From the IMG/VR virus record IMGVR_UViG_3300007960_000028, positions 1 to 56,204 of that record: DNA of 56,204 nucleotides; one strand, given 5' to 3'. Positions 8,901-54,634 of the stretch are shown one piece after another (positions within the stretch are counted from its first letter, which is position 1; the number at the start of each line of letters is the position of its first letter). A program made the translations under genes and the position numbers. The DNA is from a virus (taxonomy: Duplodnaviria > Caudoviricetes). The notes beneath the pieces are model-generated. The model saw nothing but the letters and a program-made list of their open reading frames with translations, searched no databases and was not told where the DNA came from.

Positions 8901-11900
8901 TGAAAATGATACAATACAATTAAAATATGAAACAGTTGAACCATATTTTATAAATGATACATTGCCTAGTTACTACAACAATCAATACTTATCTCAAAAT
9001 ATAAACAATGTGTCTTTAGTTGATATATTTAATACATCATTAAATAAAGATTATATATTTCATACTGCATTGTATCAACCAAATAGCGATTTACCTGATA
9101 TACAAGACGCATATCTAGTTTCTGGTTCAAGAATATTATATAGACATAAAGCATTTGAAAATTATCATATTATTGAATTTCCAAAAAGTAACTATATAAG
9201 TTTAGATTTAGAATATCAACCTGTAACAGAACCTACAATATCTATAAATGCAACTTCTTATGGTTATATAGAATATTCATCTTCAAATGTAAATGATATA
9301 TTTGATGCTACATCATCAATAGATTATTATATATATAGTCAATCAGAAACTATAAAATCAGGATTGTCATATGAAGGTGGTGTTTATACAGCTAATGTTG
9401 GTTATATATCATTCAATACATATACAGTAGCAAATAATGTATCTCCTACAAAAGTTAGACTTGTATTTGATATAAATGAAGATTCTTACTCATATAAACC
9501 AAAAACATTCCCTAACGGAGTTGATAACTACTTAAATCTAGTATTTTATAATTATCCATTTGCAATAGAAGATATTAAAGGTTTAATATCAACTATAAAT
9601 CAAGCACATAGATCAAGTTATATAACTTACATAGAAGAAAATAATTTATGGATTAGACCTATAGTAGTAAATACAAAGGATTTAGAATCAGATTCTTCTA
9701 GTAATATAGACACTCAATTTAGTTATCCAGATACAGAATTAAATTATACTGTTGGTGTAACAGATAATGGTAAATTCTACGTAGATATAGAAGATGATAC
9801 ATTAATAAATAAAAAAGGTCATACCAATATATTATTCTATATAGATCATCTATATAAACAACAAGATTTTGATAATCAAGTATTAACGGATAGGTCATTA
9901 TCTTATGGTTTAAAATATTATAATGGAAGTATAATAAATAAAACATATATAGAAAGACCAAAACATATTAAAACTGGATTGAATGAATCTGTTATAGTAA
10001 TACTATCAGAAGATCAATCTGTATATAGTTTTTATAGATCGTATGGTGGTGATATTCATACAAATGTATTTCAAAGTTTTATACCATCAATAAATGCTAA
10101 TTCAACTTATATACATTTAAGTGATTCATCTAGATACTTATCTGTATGCGATTACTTAGTATCAGCTAAAGTATTTTATAGAACTGATAATAGTTATAAA
10201 GAGATACCTATTATATATGCAAATATAGATAGACCCGTATATTGTCATATAAGTGATGATTCCAATTATTTACTAATAGTTCAAGAAACATATCCAAATA
10301 TAATATTAGGTATACAATCATATAGCGATAGAGTTGTTTTTAATTTTAAAGATGATAGAGTGGTTGAAAATTCTATAACTGGAGTAATAAATCCATATAA
10401 AGCCGTAGATATGAGGAATAATGTTATTGTTATAGGAACAAATAATGGAGTTTTAGTATATAAAAATTCATCTAAAGGATATTCAAAAGATATAATGACA
10501 TTCGTAACTACAAATTATAATAGTGCATCTAATATATCTATTACCAAATTATCAACTAATAACTATTTAGCTATTGTAGATGAAAATACAAATAGATTAT
10601 TTGTATTTTATATATCTGGATTTACAGTAACAGAAATATTTGATTATACGTTTAATGGTGCTGTAACCGATATACTATTTTTAGAAAACAATAAATATAT
10701 AGCAGTATCATCAGTTGAAGATCCATATATAACATTCTTCGAAATAAACGGATCCGATGTAAGTTTAAAGAATATAAAATTTGATATAGATATAAATGAA
10801 CCTATATACGCTATGTCTTTCTTAAAAAGTGCAAATAAATTATTATTGGGTGCAAAAGATAATAATTTTGAATTAGAAGTTTCTACTGGATATTCTATAA
10901 ATAGATTTAATGGTATAAATGATTTACCAACGGGATTAGGAACTGCAGTTGATTTTTCTCATAATGATAAATTTATGATTGTTTCTCATGAACAAAGTCC
11001 GTATATAACAGTATATTATGTTACTGATACAGAATATATTAAAATATCAAATGGTAACTTCGATATATTACCTAGTTCAACTGCTAGATGTGCAGCATTT
11101 TCAAGAGATAATAACTATCTTTTAGTTGGAACCGAAGCTGCTCCTTACTTACATATATATCAAGTAAACGATAATAATGAAAATACAACATTTACTTCAG
11201 TTTCATTACCATCAAATCCATTTACAAGTTTTATAATTAATATAGATTTTAGTTATAATGGAAATTATGTTATATTTGCAACATCTGAACAAGGTATATT
11301 AGGATATTCATATTCAAATGGTACATTAGGAACTGCTATGACAATCAATATACCGGTTACAGGTTATGTTTCCGAAACTCAATTTTCACCTAATGATAAT
11401 TTTGTTGGTGTAGCGATGGATAATAGTCCTTATGTTAGATTTTATAGTCATTCAAATGGAATACTAACAAAATTATCAGATCCACAAACAATTCCTACTG
11501 CAAAGGCAAGAGATATAGCATTTACAGAAGATGGAGTAAATGTATTTATAAACTTCCGGCAAAATCAAGGTATAATTGCTTACAAATATAATGGAACTAA
11601 ATTTGAATCTGATAATATACTATCCGAAACCATCGGTTCGGGTGTAGGTCAAGAAATGATATTATATAACGATAGAACTTTGATAACTGTTATAGAAGGA
11701 TCTTCTCCATATATCAAAACATATGTTCAAACTAATAATATATACGAACCATTATATCCAAATCCATTTACAGATATAACAGGAGATGCATTTGGTATAT
11801 CAAAATCAAATAATGGTAAGTTTATAGCAATAGCACATGATTCTGCTCCATATATAACAGTATATAAGGTAATATCCGATTCTTTACTTTTAAAATCATT

Positions 11901-13722
11901 TGATATAAAACCATATACATATACATTACCTGATGGAGATGTCAAATCAATAGCAATATCAAATGAAGATGATTATGTAGCTATAGCTAGTTCACAAGAA
12001 GATTATATAGCATTATATAATTCAATCGATGGCAATATAACTAGATTAAAATCACCTGATAGTCTGCCAACCGGACAAGCAACATCGATTGATTTTTCTA
12101 AGAACGATAAATATATAGCGATTGGTTATCAAACTAGCCCATATATAAACGTATATAAATTGAACAAATCAAATCACAATACAACTTTATTGAATATAAA
12201 TTATGCATATAACAATGAAATAAATACAGTTGCATTTGATGAAGGAAATAAATATTTAGCTATTGGTAATAATACAGCACCATATATTCATATATATGAG
12301 GTAAATAATATTATAGATCAATTCAATATTATACTAAACGAACCATCTACTTTACCAACGGGAATAGTAAATTCTATTGCATTTTCGGATAATAACAGTT
12401 ATATGGCAGTTGGTTATAATATACCTCCGTATTTATCAGTATATAGTGTAGATAGAAACACAAATTCATTTACAAAATTAGAAACTATAACTGAATTACC
12501 TATTGGTAATGCTATAGACGTGACATTTAGTTCTGGAAGTGAATATTTGTCTGTTACTCATGAAAACTCACCATTTGTAAGTCTTTATCAAGTTAATAGT
12601 ATAACAGATGAATTTACAAAAATAGAAGATCCAGATACTTTACCTATAAATCAAATAAAAAGTACTACATTTATATCTAATTATCTATATCTAAATAGTG
12701 ATGTTGCACCATATAATCATTTATATAAATTAAATGATTATGATAAACCAACTAATATAACAGATAGACTATCTATACCAAACGATCCATCTATAACAAG
12801 TGAAATATCTTCTGATGGTAATTATTTAGTAGTTGGAACAAATACTTCTCAAACATTAAAAGTATATAGTTTAGATTACTCGTATACCGACTTTAATAAT
12901 TTATTAATATATGAATTAAACGGTGATTTTATAAATCATCATAAAATATCATTTGATGTTGGGGATGATACATCTTTAGACTTCTTATTTGATACACCGG
13001 TATATAATAAAATACAAAATATAACACCATCATCTATTGGATATGTTTCATTTAATACAAGCGATTTAAATGATTTTATTAATAATAATATATCATATAC
13101 TTTAAATAAAGCATCCGATGGTAGTGTTAATTTTGAAAATTCAATAGGTAAAGTTGGTAATTCTTATGTTGGATCTATAGGTATGTTTTCAGTTGATATA
13201 ACTAAGTTTAAATCTGCTCAGTCCGTAAATTCTATGAATATCAAATTGGATATTACGCCTGAAAATACATCAACAACATCATCATACTATGCATCAACAG
13301 GAAATAATAAATATTATCTTTATGCTTACGTTGGTAACGTAGATTCTGATAATGTAAATACAGTTATATCTAATATACTATCTAATCCATCGTTATATAA
13401 AGTTGGTGAGATAGATTTAGACGATCAGTTTGTATATCAATCACAAGATTCAGTTGATTATAATGGAGTAAATTATTATGATAAATCTATATATATTGAT
13501 CTAGATAAATCAAAATTAACATATTCAAATAATGTAACTATATTTTCATTCCATCATTATATATTGGATAAAAATACATTTGCTGCTGAATTACCATTAG
13601 AATCTAATATAGATAGTTTATTTTCATTTACAATGACAGAATTTGATAGTATATCTATGGATTTATACTTGAATTTTGTTAGAGGAATATTACATCAATT
13701 GAATAAAAAAGATATAGTGTAG
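2986..13722 (+). CDS. Giant (3578 aa) multi-beta-propeller protein, putative virion fibre/receptor-binding protein
   Basis: Many ~44-aa WD40/YVTN-like blades (FSxDxxYlAv...sPYixiY...lPtg) and four copies of a scaffold domain shared with the two neighbouring paralogues; no signal peptide visible. Confidence 0.75.
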   Translation: MSLAIYNLLQQGYLKYSSDINTDFFNTTHDLELVYGENENMEVGFSIEKNNYVSKVGILTFNVQEIVPKLKSINSTEVTINIPLNSLVYKNKNLPNGVSNVLYIAKYTKNISKETLYTDLNGIISSIENSSINLDTYAVYNDEILCELNHLDGQINNNLSITINIEDLDVTKDLHLIVFNDFIKKSIDISDKELFGDMSSIYTEISVDDSQYIFNLTSSYSAYSNCNKLFAYGTDENPYLHVYSYDNDTYLTSSVTIDSKPTSPISKLQFTKDSSKLFVLTKQDPYYKIYTISNNTLNDGLSIGNELPTQEVADIAVTSNGSSIYLMSANIGTVIRRYTLSGNSYTLTSTRTLLDNDENIYRSMELNEDDSVIALASIDNGLIYNIDNGNISDVNTTYIDTNIQIFECFKFKWSTTKKYLVVNGIMAYYNTILNGNVHILKKDGDSYKYLTTITDASDMYDIKSIDFDLEDTCMVLGGNQLLNSDFRTEYSTEIRSFNIDNDVFTLQTDYFKDINSEFLDIFNGIGEVTSCDVSPNQIYISATSKTQPYLHIFSSSEKYIDSYNLLQSKITASISVDFVEDFKTTINTIYSSHSYVDYTSSNINDILDTNPSLAYSRYRVTKDDDVLRVGMYADMNSNLEQDYSNKVAQLHFDTRNLNLFGNLVSAKLSFHIDKNTIHKRPRGFLDNVSNKLIVTKLINNTSNYQAVSSSITSEIVSSASLDPYFYFTGNKTNYYDAIAISTESIESSYIDISNINQLGVTSFSLFIDSTYKSSNFSSSELNSNGNIVSYSLYKEYDTFNTDYNTIISSIVETDLNNEIIVSQETFPTFYTATSKVYYHDSASQNIINITNTLTSSIMPGSMSKMAVSQDGQWLIYDSGLMNQELTRSIYNENNTYHKNISRSNLTDRKVSDRTKLSNDNLYVLYEGFANHDSYVWNLSNLTQYNQTDGKVPGFSLYSINGNSLSYYTLPTYSAYYYNGNFSNDSSQLVVLNNLDVPILFDLENNTYDKLYIKSREYGMSQESSYITNGYFIDNSKNIIFGMSSKDNQMFKKNSASASNFTVDVPVSSSNFIHTSNISNHILVGDISGSEKHVKLYKHNYNNDTFELIPNPTEIISESISISYRNNILAFAHNSVDKIYIYSQSNDSFTKLNTPTSLPLGNMKDIQLSNDSKYMVVTTDTSPYMFVYKNTSNIYELKELDVTPTTEISSFGISSVLNIGNGDFDVFLPYIYSGSANTLYTYKLNSITDNVEFGYTASTGNRITNPHSINDSYYWKDIKWSNDNSYFYMITMEKTVDGDETRGVRYFEPSYYTNPYTKQSGYAIKELRDRVSYYATPSSYKTYDSYDVALNHYPNKINSAHKLPEYVVTRNSGLNMDVTIYNDEFNSYDDTTQYRYLSRTHRIYYNSASEITNTQSVEYKFSYDDRYIYGVSEVSPYFTIYNRNSKPYNPVYIYSENQLIRDYNSDPNPKLNFYKYYPTSSLASIDGYKFTNTNNDFVVYGMGISETSDPIEAFSVNTSSYHYEFTKIDNYIDTTQLQGKTVIKLSYTSDDNRLLALCNDKSNIFLYYYTSSETGYVYNQTINTIPIKSRGTYNLADANISSDGSYAVLCAYGNTNTIHTYQINDENVVTELDNICNTIDRVTSADISITGSFIPNTRYNDSFTNKTSGKGVLVLSDINGWLENKSVLLQRYSSSFTTESFSLIATSSYNLYQSNVFDYRFNPINNLLNEKFYSFSYDNKLLSVVSYKTDCEGNQSTTDVDIFEYIENENKWDIYESYKSDTSNILSLDYKPTSVSYTKFHPSMPLLICISYGINKGISVYKFKSYFDPQDNPTSDVPGIMELVYKGILPSDYNGILVSNIVFSNDGKYMILHSSVGKIYGYKITWENKRTPIITELDKGYTEDEIDLGSKYSAFYNRDILNGNQQVASFINDTEFVMPILQSGSFYDGDFDYNGTNIPLQASSVKNYIFYIDENDTIQLKYETVEPYFINDTLPSYYNNQYLSQNINNVSLVDIFNTSLNKDYIFHTALYQPNSDLPDIQDAYLVSGSRILYRHKAFENYHIIEFPKSNYISLDLEYQPVTEPTISINATSYGYIEYSSSNVNDIFDATSSIDYYIYSQSETIKSGLSYEGGVYTANVGYISFNTYTVANNVSPTKVRLVFDINEDSYSYKPKTFPNGVDNYLNLVFYNYPFAIEDIKGLISTINQAHRSSYITYIEENNLWIRPIVVNTKDLESDSSSNIDTQFSYPDTELNYTVGVTDNGKFYVDIEDDTLINKKGHTNILFYIDHLYKQQDFDNQVLTDRSLSYGLKYYNGSIINKTYIERPKHIKTGLNESVIVILSEDQSVYSFYRSYGGDIHTNVFQSFIPSINANSTYIHLSDSSRYLSVCDYLVSAKVFYRTDNSYKEIPIIYANIDRPVYCHISDDSNYLLIVQETYPNIILGIQSYSDRVVFNFKDDRVVENSITGVINPYKAVDMRNNVIVIGTNNGVLVYKNSSKGYSKDIMTFVTTNYNSASNISITKLSTNNYLAIVDENTNRLFVFYISGFTVTEIFDYTFNGAVTDILFLENNKYIAVSSVEDPYITFFEINGSDVSLKNIKFDIDINEPIYAMSFLKSANKLLLGAKDNNFELEVSTGYSINRFNGINDLPTGLGTAVDFSHNDKFMIVSHEQSPYITVYYVTDTEYIKISNGNFDILPSSTARCAAFSRDNNYLLVGTEAAPYLHIYQVNDNNENTTFTSVSLPSNPFTSFIINIDFSYNGNYVIFATSEQGILGYSYSNGTLGTAMTINIPVTGYVSETQFSPNDNFVGVAMDNSPYVRFYSHSNGILTKLSDPQTIPTAKARDIAFTEDGVNVFINFRQNQGIIAYKYNGTKFESDNILSETIGSGVGQEMILYNDRTLITVIEGSSPYIKTYVQTNNIYEPLYPNPFTDITGDAFGISKSNNGKFIAIAHDSAPYITVYKVISDSLLLKSFDIKPYTYTLPDGDVKSIAISNEDDYVAIASSQEDYIALYNSIDGNITRLKSPDSLPTGQATSIDFSKNDKYIAIGYQTSPYINVYKLNKSNHNTTLLNINYAYNNEINTVAFDEGNKYLAIGNNTAPYIHIYEVNNIIDQFNIILNEPSTLPTGIVNSIAFSDNNSYMAVGYNIPPYLSVYSVDRNTNSFTKLETITELPIGNAIDVTFSSGSEYLSVTHENSPFVSLYQVNSITDEFTKIEDPDTLPINQIKSTTFISNYLYLNSDVAPYNHLYKLNDYDKPTNITDRLSIPNDPSITSEISSDGNYLVVGTNTSQTLKVYSLDYSYTDFNNLLIYELNGDFINHHKISFDVGDDTSLDFLFDTPVYNKIQNITPSSIGYVSFNTSDLNDFINNNISYTLNKASDGSVNFENSIGKVGNSYVGSIGMFSVDITKFKSAQSVNSMNIKLDITPENTSTTSSYYASTGNNKYYLYAYVGNVDSDNVNTVISNILSNPSLYKVGEIDLDDQFVYQSQDSVDYNGVNYYDKSIYIDLDKSKLTYSNNVTIFSFHHYILDKNTFAAELPLESNIDSLFSFTMTEFDSISMDLYLNFVRGILHQLNKKDIV

Positions 13723-27617: not shown

Positions 27618-27844
27618 TAAGATACCTTTTCATAAAAAATTAAAAATAATTGTTTAAAATATTGTAAATCTTGCGCATTTCTAGCGTATATTTTTGTTAT
27701 TGTATTGTATTCATCAATAGTTATAGTTACATTTAATATAACTATCTCAGAGATAAAATACCAACACATCCTATTTTCTATAGGAAGTTCTTTTCTTATC
27801 TCTGATAAAGTATAATCTTTTTTTAATCTGTAAGTAGATACCAT
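27617..27844 (-). CDS. Hypothetical protein
   Basis: Stop/start overlaps. Confidence 0.6.
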   Translation of the reverse strand: MVSTYRLKKDYTLSEIRKELPIENRMCWYFISEIVILNVTITIDEYNTITKIYARNAQDLQYFKQLFLIFYEKVS

Positions 27845-28119
27845 TATAATAATTCTATATTAATATAGTTTATTTTTTCATTTTCATCATCACTATCTAA
27901 TAAATCATAAGTAACGTATATCTTACCATATAATTTCACTAATTCGTCTTTAACAATAGAAACGATATTAACTCTATTTTTAGAAATATCCAATATATCT
28001 TCATATATTGTTTCTTTATTATATGGTATTTTAAAATCGTTAAAAAATTGAATTAAAAAATACGGATTAGACGTATTGTATTCATATTTATTATCCGATA
28101 TTATTCTTAAAATCGTCAT
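27844..28119 (-). CDS. Hypothetical protein
   Basis: Packed ORF with AGGA upstream. Confidence 0.65.
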   Translation of the reverse strand: MTILRIISDNKYEYNTSNPYFLIQFFNDFKIPYNKETIYEDILDISKNRVNIVSIVKDELVKLYGKIYVTYDLLDSDDENEKINYINIELL

Positions 28120-45997: not shown

Positions 45998-46552
45998 TTA
46001 ACTTTGCCATTCAGAAATAATCTCCTTAACTTTTAACCTTAACGTATCCATATCAGAATCATTATTTATTACATAATCAAAATCATCATATGAATTATCT
46101 AAATCAATCTCTGATTGGTGTTCGTCATTTGGTTTTTCATAACCAATATAAGAAGCATCGACTCTTATTATAACACCACCACGTTCTTTTATAGATTGCA
46201 ATTCATCTTTAAATCTAACATCGGATATTATCCAATTATTATATCTTTGAAATTGAGAAAATAAAGATTTTACCCATACATCTTTTGTAAAATTATCTCT
46301 AAATACCTCTGTTCCAACTTTTTGTAACATATACCTAACACTCATATCCCAATCGGTTAAAAAATTATTTTTATTTTCGTCTTTTAAAAAATACTCTACC
46401 GGTAATCCTGTTAGTATAGAGCATATATGTTTTAAATTATATGCAAACGATTTTATTTCAAAATTTTCATTTAATTCTTGTTGTAATATAATAGAAACAG
46501 TATCTTTACCAGATCTCTTTTTTCCTGACAATCCTATTAAATTATATTTCAT
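45998..46552 (-). CDS. Deoxynucleoside monophosphate kinase (T4 gp1-like)
   Basis: GLSGKKRSGKDT, SFAYNLK, RYMLQKVGTE, ISDVRF, HQSE. Confidence 0.88.
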   Translation of the reverse strand: MKYNLIGLSGKKRSGKDTVSIILQQELNENFEIKSFAYNLKHICSILTGLPVEYFLKDENKNNFLTDWDMSVRYMLQKVGTEVFRDNFTKDVWVKSLFSQFQRYNNWIISDVRFKDELQSIKERGGVIIRVDASYIGYEKPNDEHQSEIDLDNSYDDFDYVINNDSDMDTLRLKVKEIISEWQS

Positions 46553-47001
46553 TTCTTAAATTCCTTGATTACTTTATTTATTTCTTTATGGTCTACATTA
46601 GAATATGCCATTATATTATATAACTCATATTCAATATCTTTAGAATTTACTATTATATTGTAATAGTCAATTGCGACCAAATCAGAACATTTATAATATT
46701 TTTTTATCCAATTAACAACTTTACCTTTTACAGAATCATTCTTTGTTTTAGATTTAATATATTTTATATATCCAACTTTTTTTGGAAGTAAGTTTTGTAA
46801 TACTCTATATTTAGATTCATTATCCATATATAAATCTGTACCTAAACAGATGTTATTTATTATAGGTAAATAAGATATATCCATAGATAATATCCTATTT
46901 ACCATATAAAAAGGAAAGGATGACATCTCTAATGAATCTATATCACTATAAGGAGTTTTATTACTCGTTAGATGTTGTATCGCTTTGCTTGGTTCCACCA
47001 T
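46549..47001 (-). CDS. Clamp-loader small subunit (T4 gp62-like)
   Basis: PFYMVNRILSM...LPKK...YIK...IKKYYKCS pattern; near the gp44-like gene. Confidence 0.75.
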   Translation of the reverse strand: MVEPSKAIQHLTSNKTPYSDIDSLEMSSFPFYMVNRILSMDISYLPIINNICLGTDLYMDNESKYRVLQNLLPKKVGYIKYIKSKTKNDSVKGKVVNWIKKYYKCSDLVAIDYYNIIVNSKDIEYELYNIMAYSNVDHKEINKVIKEFKK

Positions 47002-47243: not shown

Positions 47244-48197
47244 TTATTCCTGCGTTAAAAATGAACAAAACATACTCATTACGTTAATTTCTTTATCAAT
47301 AACATAGTAATCTTGATATTGATATTGATTTAAAATTATAATATTAGTAGATAAATCACCTTGTATATTATCTATATTGGTATATAAATATTTATATAAA
47401 ACCTCAAAATTAGTAATTCTAAGATCGGTTATTATCTGCCTAATCTCTTTTATTTTATCATTAGGTTTCTTTTTAGAGTTCATAATGGATATAATATCAT
47501 CAAATTCACTTTTTCTTTTAATTTCTGATTTTGATGGTAAATATTTTCCATTGATACATTTAGACCATATAGAAGTTATTGTAGAACGTATATCTGGATA
47601 TTTTTCATTTATTATACCTACAATACTATGTAATGTAGATTCATCGTTTATATCATACTCTATATTTTCAGAGTCTAATATATAGATGATTCTATTCATT
47701 ATATCTTCTTTTGGTGTATCATCTATATCGTAGCTAACAAATCTAGATTTAATAGATTGTAATATTTTTTCAGAGTGGTTGCAAGTTAATATAAATCTAA
47801 CATTATCACTATATAATTCTATAATATAATTTAAAGTTTCTTGATTTTTAATAGGTATACTATGAAATTCTTCTAATAATATTATTTTATATTTTCCTTG
47901 TGGTGCAGAATTACAGAATGGTAATATTCTATCTCTAATTCTATCTAATCCACCTTTCTGCATCTCATCTGCAGCATTGATTTGCATATAATCTTTGCAT
48001 TTCAATTCATTTATAACCATTTTAGCTAATGTGGTTTTCCCTATACCAGGAGAACCACACAATAGCATATTAGGTATATCTTCTCTTTCTATTATATTAG
48101 ATATAACTTCTCTAAATTCTTCACTACAAATATAATCTTTTAATTCTCTTGGTCTGTATTTTTCAGCCCATATAGTTGTATTTTCTCTATATTGCAT
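47244..48197 (-). CDS. Clamp-loader AAA+ subunit (T4 gp44/RFC-small-like)
   Basis: WAEKYRP, GSPGIGKTT, INAAD, RFILTCN, IKSR, PDIR, DKEIN. Confidence 0.95.
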   Translation of the reverse strand: MQYRENTTIWAEKYRPRELKDYICSEEFREVISNIIEREDIPNMLLCGSPGIGKTTLAKMVINELKCKDYMQINAADEMQKGGLDRIRDRILPFCNSAPQGKYKIILLEEFHSIPIKNQETLNYIIELYSDNVRFILTCNHSEKILQSIKSRFVSYDIDDTPKEDIMNRIIYILDSENIEYDINDESTLHSIVGIINEKYPDIRSTITSIWSKCINGKYLPSKSEIKRKSEFDDIISIMNSKKKPNDKIKEIRQIITDLRITNFEVLYKYLYTNIDNIQGDLSTNIIILNQYQYQDYYVIDKEINVMSMFCSFLTQE

Positions 48198-49588
48198 TAT
48201 TCTAAAATAATTGGGTTATACATAGTTCTTCCACGTAAGCTATCTATTACAAATAGATTTTGTGATGGTTTTTCAAATTCAGCCTTTATACTTATAGCAT
48301 AAGGATTCCATCCAATAAGAGAACCATTAATAATAAATGATTTTCCTAATAGAGATTGATGAAAATGACCAAATACATCCAATGAAACATTTCTAATTGA
48401 TTTATTCCAATTATTTATAGCTTTATTGATAGGTATAGTTGGACCACCTACACCACCACCATATCTAATAAAGTGACCATGATGGAATCTAGTAATTGTT
48501 CCATAAATATCTAATATAGTGTGAATACCATATTGTTGATGAAATTTTATAAACTTATTATTAGAAAATTTATCTCCTAATACATGATACATATATTGCT
48601 CCAATGAATTTCCTAATTCGGTAGATATTCTCTGTTGTTTTGTCATTCTACCATGATTTCCACTAGAAGTAACTATTTCAATAGGTAACTGTGTTTTATC
48701 AGATATAAATTCTATTGCACCTGCAAGTTTATTTTGAACATGTATAATTGCATCCGTTGGAAGTAAAGAGTTTGATTCTGCTAATTCATCATGTATATTA
48801 CCAGTAATAAAATCTCCACCTAAATGAATTATAATTTTCTTAGATTTATATGGTTCTTTTATAGTATCTATAATTCTAGCGGAATCATTTAATAATTGAT
48901 TTATTCTTCTTTCAGCAATTTCTAAATTAAATTCATTCAAATCATTTACAGCATGACGTTTTACAACTTCCTCTATATGCCAATCAGACCATTGAAGAAC
49001 TATTGCTGATTCTCTACCTTTTATTATAGATGGTGTAGTCTTAATTACTTTCGGAGAATACGAACTTTCTAATTGTCTTTTAATTTTAGACTCTTCTCTG
49101 AAATTGTCTATTTCATCTAATAACTTTTTATTTTTTGTTTTTAAAATATTATTTTCTTTCTCTATCTTTTTAAGTTTTAACTCATCATCTACACTATATT
49201 CTTTAGTTTTATCTTGAAATACTTCATCTATTACTAAATCTAAATCTGGTTCTGAGTCATATACATTTACATCCGAAATTTCTTGTTTTTTTGTAATATA
49301 TTTATCATACCACACACTAACAGTAATATGTTGTATTCCATATTTAGATGCTACCTTATAGATCATATCTGGATTTTTAATTTCAGATAATACTTTCTTT
49401 TTAAATTCCTTAGTATATCTTACATGTTCTCTATTGGAATTTAATAATCCATTTTTAAATTGAGTATGCCAATTTTTAATGGTGTGATCCCCACCAATAC
49501 CATACTTTCTATTTAAATCACTTATAGAACTTCCATTCATAAGCTCAGCAACAACTTTTCTTTTAAATTTGTTACTATATTTTTTCAT
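48197..49588 (-). CDS. Tandem-HTH plus calcineurin-like metallophosphoesterase/nuclease
   Basis: Two HTH_Tnp_1-like units (KYSNKFKRKVV; RYTKEFKKKVL), coiled coil, then SDWH, GDF, GNHG, HHGH, GHFH. Confidence 0.85.
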   Translation of the reverse strand: MKKYSNKFKRKVVAELMNGSSISDLNRKYGIGGDHTIKNWHTQFKNGLLNSNREHVRYTKEFKKKVLSEIKNPDMIYKVASKYGIQHITVSVWYDKYITKKQEISDVNVYDSEPDLDLVIDEVFQDKTKEYSVDDELKLKKIEKENNILKTKNKKLLDEIDNFREESKIKRQLESSYSPKVIKTTPSIIKGRESAIVLQWSDWHIEEVVKRHAVNDLNEFNLEIAERRINQLLNDSARIIDTIKEPYKSKKIIIHLGGDFITGNIHDELAESNSLLPTDAIIHVQNKLAGAIEFISDKTQLPIEIVTSSGNHGRMTKQQRISTELGNSLEQYMYHVLGDKFSNNKFIKFHQQYGIHTILDIYGTITRFHHGHFIRYGGGVGGPTIPINKAINNWNKSIRNVSLDVFGHFHQSLLGKSFIINGSLIGWNPYAISIKAEFEKPSQNLFVIDSLRGRTMYNPIILE

Positions 49589-49599
49589 ATAAAACCTTT

Positions 49600-50406
49600 T
49601 TATTTTTTAATATATGGTAATAAGATATATTTTGAATGTATATCTTCACTTTTAAAATCAAAGAATATAGCTGATGCTGGAACATTATCGTTTTTATATG
49701 CAACTATATGACTTACATTCATATCATTAGCTATAGATTTATTAGTTTCTATAATTTTTAAGAAATATAATGCATTAAATTCATTATCATCATTATTTTT
49801 TCTTCTCTTATCAAATAAATCAACATATTCATTATTTAATACCAATTCAACTTCACCGATATAATTATCAGAGTTGAATTTGATTATATTCTTATCTTCT
49901 GTTTCATTATTTAATATACTAATAGTGTCTGGTTTAAAAATACCATATAATTTTGATATTTGAATTATAAACTCATTATCCATAGGTATAGTTAATGTAG
50001 GCTCAGGTATAGAATTCAATGGTCTCTCTTTTAAATTATCATTTATCTTATCGGATTTTACACCTAAAGTAAATTTAATTTTTCTTTTCGAATCCTTTAC
50101 TATAAGCATATATGGATTGTTAGTTATATTATTATATTCTAATTCAAAACTAAACTCATCATCCATTATAGCTATAGTTTTTCTTATATCTTGTAGATTT
50201 TGTAATATCAATTTACCACTAAACCCATCAATAATACCGTGATTATATGTGGTATCTATTTTAAAACTGGTATCTACAATACCTCTCACTAATATATTTG
50301 CTGAGTTTTCATTTACGGTCAACTCACAAACATTATGCTCATCATTTATCTTCCCCAATAGGAATGTATCTAAATACTTAATAAATGAATCTCTATTTAC
50401 GGACAT
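49600..50406 (-). CDS. Putative sliding clamp (T4 gp45/PCNA-like)
   Basis: 268 aa, beta-rich, ends SKYILLP; lies between polymerase and clamp loader. The call is mostly positional. Confidence 0.55.
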   Translation of the reverse strand: MSVNRDSFIKYLDTFLLGKINDEHNVCELTVNENSANILVRGIVDTSFKIDTTYNHGIIDGFSGKLILQNLQDIRKTIAIMDDEFSFELEYNNITNNPYMLIVKDSKRKIKFTLGVKSDKINDNLKERPLNSIPEPTLTIPMDNEFIIQISKLYGIFKPDTISILNNETEDKNIIKFNSDNYIGEVELVLNNEYVDLFDKRRKNNDDNEFNALYFLKIIETNKSIANDMNVSHIVAYKNDNVPASAIFFDFKSEDIHSKYILLPYIKK

Positions 50407-50442
50407 ACATCCTCCAATATTGATAATAATTTATTTATTTTA

Positions 50443-50474
50443 CAAATTTAAAAAAAAGAATTTAATTTTCCAAA
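50443..50474 (-). promoter_or_regulatory. Bacteroidota-type sigma70 promoter
   Basis: TTTG-N20-TAAATTTG upstream of the putative clamp. Confidence 0.8.
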
Positions 50475-50477
50475 TAA

Positions 50478-50501
50478 AAATTAATAAAAATCAGAATAAT
50501 C
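50478..50501. repeat. 24-bp direct repeat, copy 1 (end of methyltransferase gene)
   Basis: AAATTAATAAAAATCAGAATAATC, identical to 51857..51880. Confidence 0.9.
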
Positions 50502-51842
50502 TACTATTGGTTTTATTTTTTTATTATTTTTATTAGTAGATTTTTTATTTATATAAAGTTTATAGGATGATATTCTATCATTTGATATTTTGTAATACTC
50601 TTTATCTTGTTCCATACCTATAAATCGAAATCCTTCTATCATAGAAGCTATTCCCGTACTACCACTACCCATAAATGGATCTAAAATAATACCATTTGGT
50701 GGAGTAACTAATCTAACCAAATACTTCATCAATTCAATTGGTTTGACAGTTACGTGATTGTTATTATCGGTTCCAGTGTTCCTTTCTTTCTTAGATACCT
50801 TTGCACAATAAAAAAATCTAGATGCAGATCCTTCATCGCCAATTGTTTCTGATAGTGGGTAATTTACATCAAATTTACCATATATTCCATTAGGACTACC
50901 ATTTGTATGCCGTGTATGATTATCATTCATAATTCCTGATTTAGTGTATGGAAATAATTCTTCTACCTCATCAGATCCATCATGTATAATATTTGATGGA
51001 AATCTTCCTTTATTATAATCAACTTTATCGGTAGAACCATACTTTCCAAATATATCACTATCAACTTTTCTACCATTATTACGGGCACCACTTATACCAA
51101 CTCTACATTTACCAATATTTATACCACCAACTCCCCATTTAATTACATTTTCTGCTATTGTATTTTCTGAAATTGGTTTTTGTGCTAATATTATGGGTTC
51201 CATTGCAGGTTTTAATTGAGTATTCCAATCATAATATAATTTAGCAAGTTCGGTTGCTAGTTCAGTTTCCATTAAACTATGTGGTTTTTTCGAATATCCC
51301 CATTTATGACTATCTATCGCAGTTTCATTTATAGTTTTGTGTTTATTTGGGTCTCTATTACAACCATCATAGGTTGATATTTTTTTACCAATCACCTTTC
51401 TTTCGGCATTATAGTATTTATCTATGGATTTATCTATAGACAATCCCTTTGGCATACCCGAACCATAAATCCAAGCTATAGTATCTTTTATATAAAATCC
51501 TGAGAATCTTATAGCCATAGACATCCAATCTTGTGTTCGTGTACCAGAAAATACTAGTATATGGCCACCTGGTTTTAATACTCTATATATTTCTTTCCAA
51601 AATATAGGTTGTGGTACAAACGAATCCCATTCTTTACCCATAAATCCACCACCACTAACATTATAATACCCATCTTTTAACCAAGAAACCATAACATCTT
51701 GTATGTTAGGTGGAGTTCCTAGTCCATACGGAGGATCGGTTACTATAGAATCAATGGAGTTATCTTCTATATCACGTAATAAATCTATATTATTACCAAT
51801 AAATAACTCATATTTATTTTCACTAAATAAATTACTATCCAT
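50481..51842 (-). CDS. N6-adenine/N4-cytosine DNA methyltransferase (beta class)
   Basis: IVTDPPY (motif IV) precedes HVTVKP and ILDPFMGSGSTG (motif I). Confidence 0.95.
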   Translation of the reverse strand: MDSNLFSENKYELFIGNNIDLLRDIEDNSIDSIVTDPPYGLGTPPNIQDVMVSWLKDGYYNVSGGGFMGKEWDSFVPQPIFWKEIYRVLKPGGHILVFSGTRTQDWMSMAIRFSGFYIKDTIAWIYGSGMPKGLSIDKSIDKYYNAERKVIGKKISTYDGCNRDPNKHKTINETAIDSHKWGYSKKPHSLMETELATELAKLYYDWNTQLKPAMEPIILAQKPISENTIAENVIKWGVGGINIGKCRVGISGARNNGRKVDSDIFGKYGSTDKVDYNKGRFPSNIIHDGSDEVEELFPYTKSGIMNDNHTRHTNGSPNGIYGKFDVNYPLSETIGDEGSASRFFYCAKVSKKERNTGTDNNNHVTVKPIELMKYLVRLVTPPNGIILDPFMGSGSTGIASMIEGFRFIGMEQDKEYYKISNDRISSYKLYINKKSTNKNNKKIKPIVDYSDFY

Positions 51843-51856
51843 TTTACCTTAAATTT

Positions 51857-51880
51857 AAATTAATAAAAATCAGAATAATC
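51857..51880. repeat. 24-bp direct repeat, copy 2 (end of DNA polymerase gene)
   Basis: AAATTAATAAAAATCAGAATAATC, encodes DYSDFY-stop on the minus strand. Confidence 0.9.
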
Positions 51881-54634
51881 AATTGTTTTTGATGGCATAG
51901 TCCATCCTATTGCATCATATATAGATTTTAATTTATTAGATAATTCACTATCATATATTTTATTAATATCTATATATTGTTTCATAAAATCTATAATTTC
52001 TTCGTATGGTTCTTCAACGGGATAACCCAATACATCTATATTAAATGGATTATGTTTCAAATAAACATATTTAATTTTATCACCTTGTTTTATTTTTCTA
52101 TATTTAAAACTAGCATTATAAAAACTCAATAATCTATTATAATATATAGCAGATTTTACCGCTACCGGTGTTCCTTTTTTAACTTGATGTATATATCTAT
52201 AGTTATCATCATCATATTCATTCATCTTTTTAATAGATGATATTTTAGATATATACTCATAATCATCTGGTCCGATTGTTTTTAATAAACCAGATACCAA
52301 TTCATTTGATTTTTCTTTATCATAATCAATCAATATAAGTTCCATTAATGTCTTTAAGTGAGTTCTAAATTTAACAGGAAATGATGATCTAACAACATCT
52401 ATACCTTTAAAATCCAATGGATCTTTTAAATTTCGTTTACCTTCACTATCAATTACATATTGAGCATATCTTTTTTTACCTAACCATAACCCACGTCTAG
52501 TTATCTTTTCTCTGTTAAATTTTAATCTGTTATTGTCAGAATTCAAATATATTTTAGAAAATGCTTCTAGTGATTCATTAATATTATCACAATACTCGGC
52601 TGCTATATTTGATAATATATCTATTTCTTCATTTGTTGGATTATTTAAATCTTTTATATGAGAATAATCATTTGGATGGAATGGTACATAACTAGAATCG
52701 GTATCGTTGTATATTACAACGTCCTCAAATCTTTCATTATTATTTATAGAATATAATTTATTAAATATGAATGATGCATATTTAATTACATCTCTACCGG
52801 TAGCAGTAACGGCTCCTGCATTTTCTAAATCATAAAATCTAAAACTCTCTAAACCTAAAACACCATATATAGAGTTAAGTAAGATTTTTTGTACTAATTG
52901 TAGTTTATCATAATATACAGATGCGTCTGGATCGTTATCTTTTATAGCTTGTTTTAATTTAGATTTATATTCTAATCTTTTATTAAACCAATCAGATAAT
53001 ATTGTTGGTATCAATCCTTTAATATCGGTTCTATACATTAAACCATTAGATGCAATTGTATATTTATTTTCTTCTATAAATTCTATAAATTCTTGTTTTG
53101 TTAGATTAAATCGTTCTTTCTGTAAGTTTTCAACAATCAATATAGCATCATCATCTATATAATTAAAATTACCAGAAAATAAAGAAAAATCTATTTCTCC
53201 ATCATGAAGAGAATTTATATAATTCATCATACCAACATCTTCCCAATTCAATATTCTACCTATTTTAGTTTCAGGTGAAATATTTAATGTTATAATGATA
53301 GACGGATATAATGATTGTAAATCGATAGAAAAGAAATATTCATATATACTTGGTTCAGGTAATCTAACATACGCACCCTCAAATGCAAGTTTTACTTCAC
53401 AACCCTCACCAAATGATTTATCTAATTCATTTTTTAAATAAAATACACCATTATTATAGTCTATATATTCATATATATCCTTAGTTGATTTTGTTCGGAA
53501 TACTCTTACTAAACCCTTTGTTGGGATACGTTCTCTATCACAATCAACATCAACCGATAAAGTATTTATACCAGAATAATGTACCATATTAGATGTCATA
53601 TTTATCTTTTTAGACTTATTTGGTGCTAATGTATTATTCTTATCCATATAACTCATTATAGCACCTTCTATAACCGCAGATGAGTGTATAAACTGTTGAT
53701 ATGGTATATGTGATACGTGACAAATTCTTCTAGTTAAATTTATAAAATCTACTTTTTTATCTAACTCGGTTATTAGCTTAACATCGACTAAGTTGTATTC
53801 TATAAATTTATTTATATCTGTTTTAAATAAAGTATCTAAACTACCTTCATATTTTATTTTACCATGACCCAATTCTTCATTAGCAACATAATCCAAAGCA
53901 TAACTAGATAATTCAGAATAAGTATAATTTTTATATAATTTCATATAGTCTAAAGATGCTACTCCAGCTATATCAACCATTTTATTTTTTTCGCTATACT
54001 TTACTATTTCAATTGGACTTAATTTTTTTACCCATTTATTACCTAATACACGGTTTATCCTAAAATATAAATATCTATTATCAAAGCTATCACTATTCCA
54101 ACCAACAACAATATGTGGTGATATAGATTTAAAATCATTTATATATTGTTTTAATAGATCAACCTCTGATTTAAAAGATATAACCGTAACATTACTATCA
54201 GCATTGTAATTTGGAACTTCGTCTGATAAAACATATACATAATATTTATCTTCTGTATGGTCATACATAGCTATAGAAGTTATAGTATTTTTTGCTTCTT
54301 CTTCTTTTAGTTCATTAGATTCCATCTCAACCTCAATATCGATAATAACTATCTTGATATTTTCGGATATAGAATCTGAATCGTTGTAATACTTTATTAG
54401 TTGCTCTATTTCAGGAGATAAGTCTATCTGTAAATAATCATTTGGATTTCCATTATACCCATCTACATTTACTACAGGATAATTATCAAACAGATATTTA
54501 TGACTACCTTTTATAGTATCATTTTTTGCTAATTTATAATAATCTTGTTGTCTTGTAAAATTAGTATATCCAAAATTATCATCCCACAAATGAACTGTAT
54601 TTTTGGATCTATCAAAATATATAGATTGATACAT
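51860..54634 (-). CDS. Family B DNA polymerase (T4 gp43-like)
   Basis: Exo DIE, GWNSDSFD, YNLVDV; palm DLQSLYPS, KILLNSIYG, YNDTDS, KKRY. Confidence 0.97.
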   Translation of the reverse strand: MYQSIYFDRSKNTVHLWDDNFGYTNFTRQQDYYKLAKNDTIKGSHKYLFDNYPVVNVDGYNGNPNDYLQIDLSPEIEQLIKYYNDSDSISENIKIVIIDIEVEMESNELKEEEAKNTITSIAMYDHTEDKYYVYVLSDEVPNYNADSNVTVISFKSEVDLLKQYINDFKSISPHIVVGWNSDSFDNRYLYFRINRVLGNKWVKKLSPIEIVKYSEKNKMVDIAGVASLDYMKLYKNYTYSELSSYALDYVANEELGHGKIKYEGSLDTLFKTDINKFIEYNLVDVKLITELDKKVDFINLTRRICHVSHIPYQQFIHSSAVIEGAIMSYMDKNNTLAPNKSKKINMTSNMVHYSGINTLSVDVDCDRERIPTKGLVRVFRTKSTKDIYEYIDYNNGVFYLKNELDKSFGEGCEVKLAFEGAYVRLPEPSIYEYFFSIDLQSLYPSIIITLNISPETKIGRILNWEDVGMMNYINSLHDGEIDFSLFSGNFNYIDDDAILIVENLQKERFNLTKQEFIEFIEENKYTIASNGLMYRTDIKGLIPTILSDWFNKRLEYKSKLKQAIKDNDPDASVYYDKLQLVQKILLNSIYGVLGLESFRFYDLENAGAVTATGRDVIKYASFIFNKLYSINNNERFEDVVIYNDTDSSYVPFHPNDYSHIKDLNNPTNEEIDILSNIAAEYCDNINESLEAFSKIYLNSDNNRLKFNREKITRRGLWLGKKRYAQYVIDSEGKRNLKDPLDFKGIDVVRSSFPVKFRTHLKTLMELILIDYDKEKSNELVSGLLKTIGPDDYEYISKISSIKKMNEYDDDNYRYIHQVKKGTPVAVKSAIYYNRLLSFYNASFKYRKIKQGDKIKYVYLKHNPFNIDVLGYPVEEPYEEIIDFMKQYIDINKIYDSELSNKLKSIYDAIGWTMPSKTIDYSDFY

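What the first reader, a model, noticed from the sequence alone, without database searches (positions are those of the whole stretch)
50478..51880. Methyltransferase bounded by a 24-bp duplication of the polymerase 3' end, giving it the polymerase's putative clamp-binding tail
Seen: the MTase ends KPIVDYSDFY* and the adjacent PolB ends KTIDYSDFY*. The DNA is identical for 24 bp including synonymous positions and 3 nt past the stop, and the copies are 1379 bp apart. Deleting between them would leave an intact polymerase directly above the clamp promoter. Known: T4/RB69 gp43, gp33 and gp55 bind the gp45 clamp through a C-terminal hydrophobic/aromatic peptide (SLDFLF-like). Inference: the MTase inserted at the pol terminus and captured the clamp-docking peptide via a K/N-rich linker. 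That would make a replisome-tethered methylase marking nascent DNA at the fork (anti-restriction), possibly as an excisable cassette.
Basis: partly seen in the sequence, partly recalled or inferred. Interest (0 to 1): 0.88.

Follow-up and report, generated by a model that had tools for sequence, protein, structure and literature searches.

The report
Clamp-tethered phage DNA methyltransferase tail
A phage DNA methyltransferase ends in the same short peptide as the phage's own DNA polymerase, and related phages show matching pairs with different peptides, which suggests the enzyme rides the replication sliding clamp to methylate new DNA as it is made.

Summary
An exact 24-bp repeat (50478-50501 and 51857-51880) ends both a T4-like family-B polymerase and the adjacent N6/N4 DNA methyltransferase, so both proteins end in DYSDFY. 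Contigs from three other studies bridge both junctions, so it is not an assembly artefact.

The main result is wider than the finding. In 10 of 10 phage records that hold this methyltransferase family and a full-length (about 825-924 aa) T4-type PolB, the methyltransferase ends in an aromatic tail. In most it resembles that phage's polymerase tail (for example KFFN/KFFN and QPATYW/QPAVYW). The genes are usually not adjacent and the codons differ. A permutation test gave p about 7e-5.

Relatives in phages without a PolB often end in the bacterial beta-clamp motif (QLxLF type): 28 of 155, against 2 of 442 background ORFs.

The 268-aa neighbour has a predicted PCNA-like clamp fold.

Best reading: a clamp-binding peptide tethers the methyltransferase to the clamp that replicates the phage. 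Binding itself is not shown.

Capture of the polymerase end at this locus is plausible. A relative carries a non-orthologous methyltransferase core with the same tail at the same site. Excision has no support. I found no description of this in print.

The parts
51860..54634 (-). T4 gp43-like family-B DNA polymerase (924 aa)
   Evidence: Pfam DNA_pol_B 1.6e-38 and DNA_pol_B_exo1 1.9e-16. phrog_262 4e-172. Best PDB matches are RB69 and T4 gp43; residues 409-913 align to 379-887 of the 898-aa T4 chain 9ea3.
51863..51895 (-). PolB C-terminal tail (last 11 aa, ...SKTIDYSDFY), positionally equivalent to the gp43 clamp-binding tail
   Evidence: The alignment to T4 gp43 stops 11 residues before both C-termini. 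The gp43 tail binds gp45 (PMC3012046 passages).
51857..51880 (.). Repeat copy 2 (24 bp exact)
50481..51842 (-). beta-class N6/N4 DNA methyltransferase (453 aa), probably adenine-specific
   Evidence: Pfam N6_N4_Mtase 1.4e-34, residues 30-421. phrog_67 2e-68. DPPY and DPFMGSG motifs in the translation. Best PDB matches are DpnA, CcrM and MboIIA. AF2 model has pLDDT 74.9.
50484..50543 (-). MTase K/N-rich linker plus tail (about residues 434-453; the tail ...KPIVDYSDFY is the proposed clamp-binding peptide)
   Evidence: The Pfam domain ends at residue 421. The last helix is 414-439, and residues 440-453 have pLDDT below 50 with no secondary structure. Close homologues P0012, P0028 and P0072 end just after the core.
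50478..50501 (.). Repeat copy 1 (24 bp exact)
50407..50480 (-). Spacer between the MTase and the clamp gene
   Evidence: One weak promoter-like site, not above chance.
49600..50406 (-). Divergent PCNA/gp45-like sliding clamp (268 aa)
   Evidence: No Pfam, PHROG or NCBIfam hit. The ESM Atlas's own model (pTM 0.76) matches PCNA and sliding-clamp clusters at TM 0.69-0.80 over residues 1-268. Homologue P0127 hits phrog_223 'processivity factor' weakly, E 0.012. It lies between PolB and the clamp loader.
48197..49588 (-). HTH_Tnp_1 domain fused to a phrog_284 exonuclease (463 aa)
   Evidence: 69% identical in L102.
47244..48197 (-). gp44-like clamp-loader ATPase
   Evidence: phrog_168 7e-63. AAA 2.5e-14.
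46549..47001 (-). gp62-like clamp-loader small subunit
   Evidence: phrog_225 2.4e-9.

Best explanation
The 453-aa enzyme is a beta-class DNA (probably N6-adenine) methyltransferase. Its folded core is followed by a roughly 20-residue K/N-rich flexible linker and a C-terminal short linear motif (...PIVDYSDFY) that is the same as the tail of the phage's gp43-like polymerase. In T4-type replisomes that polymerase tail docks in the hydrophobic pocket of the trimeric gp45-type clamp. The proposal is that the methyltransferase uses the same pocket of the phage's own clamp (49600..50406). It would then ride on clamps at or just behind the fork and methylate nascent phage DNA promptly, before host restriction enzymes can act. 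This would be one case of a general rule in this methyltransferase family. The core is exchangeable, and the C-terminal peptide matches the clamp that replicates the phage: a polymerase-like aromatic tail where the phage brings a PolB and gp45-type clamp, and a QLxLF-type beta-clamp motif where it relies on the host replisome. Shown: the sequence identity, the domain and fold assignments, the predicted disorder of the tail, the co-variation across phages, and the enrichment of beta-clamp motifs. Inferred: physical binding, the pocket used, adenine specificity and the anti-restriction benefit. At this locus the tail was probably copied from the adjacent polymerase 3' end by duplication or gene conversion, and an incoming tail-less core was joined to it through AT-rich, formerly non-coding sequence.
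For: (1) The tails are identical in the window, and only these 2 of 136 ORFs carry the tail. (2) The PolB tail is positionally the gp43 clamp-binding tail (PMC3012046 passages). (3) Co-variation. Mel-JY01: PolB ...NLSKFFNFK and MTase ...NIAKFFNMDKKEN, about 110 kb apart. G015...QPAVYW and ...QPATYW. G001 and G002...TLEDFFS and ...PLMEFFS. G005...TLEDFF and ...PLMEFM. G003...EKFFSF and ...KKFW. G006, G009 and G007 are looser FF-type pairs. All 10 of 10 records holding this MTase family and a full-length T4-type PolB have a tailed MTase. Permutation of 9 distinct pairs gave an observed score of 198 against 120.9 +/- 16.8, p about 7e-5. For 6 tail classes, 1 of 720 permutations reaches the observed score. 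(4) The matching tails in the other phages use different codons and stop codons, so the similarity is kept at the protein level. (5) Whole-record scans. In G015 (46 ORFs) only PolB and the MTase end in QPA[VT]YW. In G003 (69 ORFs) the tail ends PolB, two tandem MTases and one 155-aa protein. (6) The strict beta-clamp motif Q[LIVMA]x[LM][FL] falls in the last 10 residues of 28 of 155 non-redundant family members, against 2 of 442 other ORFs from the same loci (consensus from PMC11139829 passages). Records with such tails had no PolB and no DnaN. (7) Residues 440-453 are predicted disordered beyond the last helix. (8) The clamp fold and its synteny with the clamp loader. (9) In L102 a 37%-identical core carries the tail ...KAKVDFSNFY at the same site.
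Against: No binding measurement or confident model exists. The tail is not a canonical PIP box (Qxxhxxaa), because it has no Q. The clamp assignment rests on a predicted structure held by the Atlas and on synteny, with no family-model hit for the window protein. The permutation signal is carried mainly by three pairs (window, Mel-JY01, G015). For G006, G009 and G007 the phage's own PolB is only the 6th, 4th and 2nd best-scoring partner of 9. The phages are related, so the pairs are not fully independent. A loose tail pattern also hit a baseplate hub protein in G001. Many family members have no tail: Salmonella 9NA, Mycobacterium SirDuracell, Bacillus BSP18, Klebsiella e270.1, G016 and G017. 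The tail is therefore not needed for catalysis. Phage Melnitz has a C5 methyltransferase right after PolB without such a tail. In G020 a short 569-aa PolB-like ORF and the MTase have unlike ends. The exact DNA identity in the window could be partly due to codon bias.
Confidence: 0.7

Rival explanations
1. Neutral scar. The shared end is only a by-product of how the MTase gene was inserted next to the polymerase (target duplication or gene conversion), and it has no function in the MTase.
For: The two genes are adjacent. The DNA is identical over 24 bp and 86% identical over 37 nt. Identity beyond the stop codon is unlikely under codon bias alone (about 0.006).
Against: The same tail type is kept on a non-orthologous MTase core in L102. 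In nine other records the MTase and PolB are not adjacent, yet both end in aromatic tails, clearly alike in several (Mel-JY01, G015, G001/G002) and written with different codons. Beta-clamp motifs are about 40-fold enriched in the family.
Confidence: 0.1
2. The shared tail binds a common partner other than the clamp, for example the ssDNA-binding protein, a helicase loader, a protease or chaperone, or a compartment-targeting factor.
For: Binding was not measured. The tail is not a canonical PIP box. The clamp is highly divergent.
Against: The PolB tail is at the position of the gp43 clamp-binding tail. Family members in PolB-less phages carry the well-defined beta-clamp motif instead, which points to the clamp as the common target.
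Confidence: 0.1
3. Excisable or swappable cassette. The 24-bp direct repeats serve mainly as recombination sites that let the MTase be deleted or exchanged, leaving an intact polymerase.
For: By geometry, deletion between the repeats restores the order PolB, spacer, clamp. Mel-JY01 has PolB directly followed by the clamp homologue. The cores differ between the window and L102 at the same site.
Against: No contig of four laid runs joins across the 1379 bp, though contigs drop rare forms. 24 bp is short. This rival does not exclude the clamp-tether reading.
Confidence: 0.08
4. Assembly artefact. The repeat or the gene order is a chimera of the assembler.
For: Short exact repeats can misjoin metagenome contigs.
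Against: Contigs from runs of three other studies bridge both junctions with 0-1 differences, and a roughly 95% variant from a fourth joins the MTase to the PolB end. L102 independently shows the order MTase, clamp, exonuclease.
Confidence: 0.01

Closest known systems
Eukaryotic DNMT1-PCNA (PIP-box-tethered maintenance methyltransferase)
   Same: A DNA methyltransferase is recruited to newly replicated DNA through a short clamp-binding motif (PMC9690074 passage).
   Different: DNMT1 is a C5-cytosine enzyme of eukaryotes with a canonical PIP motif. Here the enzyme is a phage beta-class N6/N4 enzyme with a C-terminal tail copied from, or matched to, the viral polymerase. There is no homology between the two systems.
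T4/RB69 gp43 C-terminal tail bound to the gp45 clamp (PDB 1b8h)
   Same: An extreme C-terminal hydrophobic and acidic peptide follows the thumb domain of a gp43-type polymerase. The window PolB tail is at the same position.
   Different: The sequence differs (DYSDFY type, no Q). The clamp is 268 aa and hits no gp45 or PCNA family model. In T4 the known PIP-box clients named in that review are gp43 and RNase H, not a methyltransferase.
Bacterial beta-clamp binding motifs (QL[S/D]LF; Pol II, Pol IV, Hda; phage Mu MuC)
   Same: Many relatives of this MTase end in QLSLF, QLTLF, QLNLF or QLKLF tails that fit the consensus. A phage protein using the host clamp through such a motif has a precedent in MuC (bioRxiv 10.1101/2025.01.04.631326, abstract and passages).
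   Different: The window's own tail is not of this type. The 2024 beta-clamp review has no occurrence of words beginning 'methyl' in its main text.
Plasmid replication-associated single-strand-specific methyltransferases M.EcoGIX and M.BceJIII (PMC7736820)
   Same: These are mobile-element DNA methyltransferases whose action is coupled to replication. The authors speculate that a host protein such as the sliding clamp mediates this (passages).
   Different: No clamp-binding motif was described in the passages seen. Activity was rescued there by artificial fusion to Pol I. They are plasmid enzymes, not phage enzymes. I did not compare their sequences with the window MTase.

Membership tests
N6_N4_Mtase (PF01555), beta-class DNA methyltransferase | Family model matched above the curated cut-off | tested here: met
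   120.4 bits against a cut-off of 26.7, residues 30-421. phrog_67 2e-68.
N6_N4_Mtase (PF01555), beta-class DNA methyltransferase | Catalytic DPPY motif N-terminal to the SAM-binding FxGxG motif (order recalled from knowledge of beta-class enzymes) | tested here: met
   The translation shows ...IVTDPPYGLG... near residue 36 and ...LDPFMGSGSTG... near residue 388. D36, P38, Y39 and G392 are invariant in 41 sequences.
N6_N4_Mtase (PF01555), beta-class DNA methyltransferase | Base and site specificity (N6-A against N4-C; target sequence) | not testable with these tools
   The best PDB matches are adenine enzymes (DpnA, CcrM, MboIIA), but N4-C enzymes also match.
Clamp-binding short linear motif (gp43-tail / PIP-like) | Lies in a disordered terminus outside the folded domain | tested here: met
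   Residues 440-453 have pLDDT below 50 and no secondary structure, after helix 414-439.
Clamp-binding short linear motif (gp43-tail / PIP-like) | Canonical PIP box Qxxhxxaa | tested here: not met
   The tail KPIVDYSDFY has no Q, and the spacing does not fit (consensus from PMC3012046). It is therefore not filed as a PIP box.
Clamp-binding short linear motif (gp43-tail / PIP-like) | Same peptide as a bona fide clamp client of the same genome, and co-variation with it | tested here: met
   (p about 7e-5).
Clamp-binding short linear motif (gp43-tail / PIP-like) | Physical binding to the clamp pocket | not testable with these tools
   This needs a binding assay or a structure.
PCNA/gp45-type sliding clamp (49600..50406) | Two-domain PCNA-like fold | tested here: met
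   The Atlas model (pTM 0.76) matches PCNA and sliding-clamp clusters at TM 0.69-0.80 over residues 1-268. My own 5-sequence AF2 model was too poor to use (pLDDT 38.7).
PCNA/gp45-type sliding clamp (49600..50406) | Match to a curated clamp family model | tested here: not met
   No Pfam, PHROG or NCBIfam hit. Only homologue P0127 hits phrog_223, at E 0.012.
PCNA/gp45-type sliding clamp (49600..50406) | Genomic association with PolB and the clamp loader; ring trimer | tested here: inconclusive
   Synteny is met. The oligomeric state was not tested.
T4 gp43-type family-B replicative polymerase | Exo and pol domains, best matches to gp43, C-terminal tail after the thumb | tested here: met

The most novel reading that the evidence does not exclude
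A large family of phage (and prophage) orphan DNA methyltransferases is tethered to sliding clamps by exchangeable C-terminal peptides. The peptide is a beta-clamp motif when the phage uses the host replisome, and a copy or mimic of the phage polymerase's own tail when it brings a gp45/PCNA-type clamp. This would be a prokaryotic-virus counterpart of DNMT1-PCNA that arose independently. It would couple protective methylation to the replication fork, and the tail sequence could serve as a read-out of which clamp a phage uses.
Probability: 0.55. Interest if true: 0.85.

Novelty: new variant of a known kind. Interest (0 to 1): 0.8.

Why it matters
Phage methyltransferases are a main counter to restriction-modification, but how they keep pace with very fast phage replication is rarely asked. 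A clamp tether would place the enzyme on nascent DNA. That would explain how unmethylated daughter strands escape host nucleases, and it would parallel eukaryotic maintenance methylation.

The co-variation gives a simple rule: the methyltransferase tail resembles the polymerase tail, or carries the host beta-clamp motif. This rule can be tested with peptides and purified clamps. It could also annotate clamp-binding motifs for very divergent phage clamps, and it could predict whether an uncultured phage uses its own clamp or the host's.

The finding would also add methyltransferases to the short list of known beta-clamp clients. The 2024 beta-clamp review contains no word beginning 'methyl'.

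Tried and rejected
Complex prediction: a clamp trimer (6-row alignment) with MTase residues 414-453 scored 0.02 and 0.01 against a mark of 0.32. The verdict was 'no answer', and the controls were not run. This counts neither for nor against binding.

AF2 on the clamp with a 5-sequence alignment gave pLDDT 38.7. It was unusable, so no fold search was run on it. A profile of the clamp against PDB sequences gave only a chance hit at E 0.035.

The clamp has very few relatives. There were 3 and 5. In one search, 7 proteins scored E up to 0.001, and I take 3 of them as real. The search for related loci with the clamp alignment found none in viral contigs and one in metagenome contigs (L102). The search for related loci with PolB found no relative in viral contigs.

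Their polymerase tails are therefore unknown.

A degenerate DNA pattern for D[YF]S[DN]FY* found one IMG/VR hit. It is a Gly-rich 404-aa protein of a 222-kb phage (L103), and I judged it unrelated.

The promoter and terminator scan gave nothing above chance.

A PolB C-terminal fragment alone found no PDB match.

Nine literature searches returned no paper whose title or abstract start, or the passages I read in seven of them, describes a clamp-binding motif on a bacterial or phage DNA methyltransferase. Seven papers were read only as 'find' passages. Subscription journals and supplements were not searchable, so an earlier description cannot be excluded.

Rows left out of the permutation test: G002 (same tails as G001), and G020 (found later; a 569-aa weak PolB-like hit whose end does not resemble the MTase end).

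Considered and rejected: the 292-aa ORF ending ...GIFDIEDEDN is an amidase and not a clamp client.
Full report
WHAT IS THERE. The window is a whole 56,204-bp viral contig with 25.7% GC. Around the finding all genes lie on the - strand. In order they are:
- a gp43-like family-B polymerase, 51860..54634, 924 aa (Pfam DNA_pol_B and exo1; phrog_262 4e-172; best PDB matches RB69 and T4 gp43);
- an N6_N4 DNA methyltransferase, 50481..51842, 453 aa (PF01555 1.4e-34; phrog_67);
- a 268-aa ORF, 49600..50406, with no family hit;
- a 463-aa fusion of a transposase-type HTH with a phrog_284 exonuclease;
- a gp44-like clamp-loader ATPase, a 93-aa zinc-ribbon ORF and a gp62-like small subunit.
The closest cultured relative of the polymerase is Microcystis phage Mel-JY01, at 36% identity.

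THE OBSERVATION. Both proteins end in DYSDFY. The 24-mer at 50478-50501 recurs exactly at 51857-51880, 1379 bp away. The chance expectation is 0.01, and 0 of 100 shuffles gave two copies. The similarity extends to 37 nt at 86%. Only these 2 of 136 ORFs carry the tail.

The gene order is not an assembly artefact. Contigs of runs from three other studies bridge both junctions with 0-1 differences. A roughly 95% identical variant from a fourth study also joins the methyltransferase to the polymerase end. No contig joins across the 1379 bp.

In this genome GAT, TAT and TTT each make up about 90% of their codon families. An identical DYSDFY* would therefore be written identically with probability about 0.065, or about 0.006 with the 3 nt after the stop. 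The DNA identity suggests copying at the DNA level but does not prove it.

IS THE NEIGHBOUR A CLAMP? Sequence searches find only a handful of relatives, and my own AF2 model was unusable. The ESM Atlas holds the protein with a model of pTM 0.76. By structure, that model matches PCNA and sliding-clamp clusters at TM 0.69-0.80 over residues 1-268. Homologue P0127 weakly hits the PHROG 'DNA polymerase processivity factor' (E 0.012). In Mel-JY01 the ORF directly after PolB and before the clamp loader is a remote homologue (hhalign probability 75%). I take it to be a divergent PCNA/gp45-type clamp. This rests on fold prediction and synteny.

IS THE TAIL FUNCTIONAL? This is where the evidence went beyond the finding.

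(a) Position of the polymerase tail. The window polymerase aligns to T4 gp43 up to 11 residues before both C-termini. Its tail therefore sits where gp43 carries the peptide that binds gp45 (PDB 1b8h; PMC3012046 passages).

(b) Tails of the homologues. The C-termini of the 120 best methyltransferase homologues and of 78 IMG/VR homologues fall into three groups. Some end right after the core. Many end in QLSLF, QLTLF, QLNLF or QLKLF. Others end in aromatic tails such as ...KFFE...MEFFS...DFIF and ...KFW. The strict beta-clamp pattern Q[LIVMA]x[LM][FL] occurs in the last 10 residues of 28 of 155 non-redundant members. It occurs in 2 of 442 other ORFs from the same loci. The consensus is taken from the 2024 beta-clamp review.

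(c) Pairs within one record. I searched 20 IMG/VR records that carry such a methyltransferase for family-B polymerases.
- Eight records have a full-length T4-type PolB (two of them split into two ORFs).
- One record has a short, weak PolB-like ORF.
- Eleven records have none.
Together with the window and Mel-JY01 this gives 10 records with a T4-type PolB. In all 10 the methyltransferase is tailed, and in most the tail resembles that record's polymerase tail:

| Record | MTase tail | PolB tail |
|---|---|---|
| window | DYSDFY | DYSDFY |
| Mel-JY01 (genes about 110 kb apart) | AKFFNM... | SKFFNFK |
| G015 | QPATYW | QPAVYW |
| G001 and G002 | PLMEFFS | TLEDFFS |
| G005 | PLMEFM | TLEDFF |
| G003 | KKFW | EKFFSF |
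| G006 | LSEFFA | LEGFFN |
| G009 | TKFFG | LESFFS |
| G007 | LGKFL | IESFFS |

. Shuffling the pairings of 9 distinct pairs gave p about 7e-5. With 6 tail classes, 1 of 720 permutations reaches the observed score. The signal comes mainly from the window, Mel-JY01 and G015. The FF-type phages resemble one another, so their own PolB is not always the best-scoring partner.

(d) Codons. In those other phages the matching residues use different codons and stop codons. The likeness is therefore maintained at the protein level.

(e) Whole-record scans. In G015 only PolB and the methyltransferase (2 of 46 ORFs) end in QPA[VT]YW. In G003 the tail ends PolB, two tandem methyltransferases and a 155-aa YunG-like protein. 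In G001 a loose pattern also picked up a baseplate hub, which is a likely false positive.

(f) Records with beta-type tails. Those examined have neither a PolB nor a DnaN of their own, so the host clamp is the plausible target.

(g) Predicted disorder. The AF2 model of the window enzyme (pLDDT 74.9) ends its fold with helix 414-439. Residues 440-453 are of low confidence and unstructured.

HOW THE TAIL GOT THERE. Several facts bear on this.
- Close homologues of the window core have no tail. P0012, P0028 and P0072 are 64% identical over the C-terminal half.
- A metagenome contig of a related phage (L102) has the same order of methyltransferase, clamp and exonuclease. Its clamp is 49% and its exonuclease 69% identical to the window's.
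- The L102 methyltransferase is only 37% identical to the window's. It ranks the window enzyme 77th of 120.
- The L102 enzyme still ends in a K-rich linker and ...VDFSNFY.
So different cores occupy the same site and carry the lineage's tail. The K/N/I-rich linker looks like translated AT-rich spacer; that point is inference. Mel-JY01 supplies an 'empty site', with PolB followed directly by the clamp homologue. Excision in the present phage has no support.

COUNTER-EVIDENCE.
- Many cultured-phage members of the family are tail-less: 9NA, SirDuracell, BSP18 and e270.1.
- Large PolB-less records G016 and G017 have tail-less enzymes.
- Phage Melnitz carries a C5 methyltransferase right after PolB without a tail. 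Neither Melnitz nor HTVC008M has a PF01555 enzyme.
- The G020 pair does not match.
- The tail is not a canonical PIP box.

COMPARISON WITH WHAT IS KNOWN. The closest concept is DNMT1-PCNA (PMC9690074 passage). Close by mechanism are the gp43 tail with gp45 and beta-clamp motifs, including phage Mu MuC. Plasmid 'replication-associated' methyltransferases were reported with only a speculative link to the clamp (PMC7736820 passages). Nine full-text searches found no paper describing a clamp-binding motif on a bacterial or phage DNA methyltransferase. The library lacks most subscription journals and all supplements.

VERDICT. The clamp-tether idea gains strong comparative support and appears to be a family-wide feature. 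The capture route is plausible. The excisable cassette is unsupported. Binding is untested. I rate it a new variant of a known kind, a clamp-binding motif on a new class of client, with interest 0.8.

Noticed in passing
window 48197-49588 (-): A 463-aa protein fuses an N-terminal transposase-type HTH (HTH_Tnp_1, 9.6e-10) to a phrog_284 exonuclease with metallophosphatase-like motifs. It sits between the clamp and the clamp loader. It is 69% identical in L102 and absent from the same position in Mel-JY01.
   Followed up: partly
window 2986-13722 (+): A single 3578-aa ORF on the opposite strand to nearly all other genes, followed by 1106-aa and 1575-aa ORFs on the - strand. None was annotated here.
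   Followed up: no
L117:13648-16570 (G003): Two tandem PF01555 methyltransferases (509 and 463 aa) both end in ...K[SN]S[KN]KFW. A 155-aa YunG-like protein (L117:3631-4098) ends in ...NTKFW and may be a further clamp client.
   Followed up: partly
L089-L092 and L094 (G009, G007): The T4-type PolB is split into two ORFs (611 + 368 aa and 508 + 367 aa). The clamp-type tail is on the second piece.
   Followed up: no
L104:3367-4584 (Methylophilales phage Melnitz, MZ577097.1): A C5-cytosine methyltransferase (annotated hhaIM) lies directly after PolB, as the N6/N4 enzyme does in the window, but it has no polymerase-like tail.
   Followed up: yes
L103:7893-9107 (-), 222.5-kb IMG/VR contig: A 404-aa protein with Gly-rich GNNEGGSGDTG-type repeats ends in ...ESDYSDFY. 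A neighbouring paralogue ends in ...DDDDYSFYY. These acidic-aromatic ends sit in what look like non-replication proteins, and the similarity to the window tail is probably chance.
   Followed up: partly
P0014: A 49%-identical methyltransferase ending ...VVDFIF is listed with a longest contig of 56,204 bases, the same length as the window. It is not encoded in the window. This is unexplained.
   Followed up: partly
P0004-P0006, P0013, P0087 and others; L003-L006, L008, L024: A large tail class ...[QM]NIFDF[ML]EE or ...YDIFD[FY]L occurs in records without a PolB, including a provirus (G004) and a 1.97-Mb bacterial contig (P0087). It may be a non-canonical beta-clamp motif of some host group.
   Followed up: no
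window 27844-28119 (-): A 91-aa acidic protein ends in ...DDENEKINYINIELL, with no family hit. It might be a small acidic factor with a hydrophobic C-terminus.
   Followed up: partly
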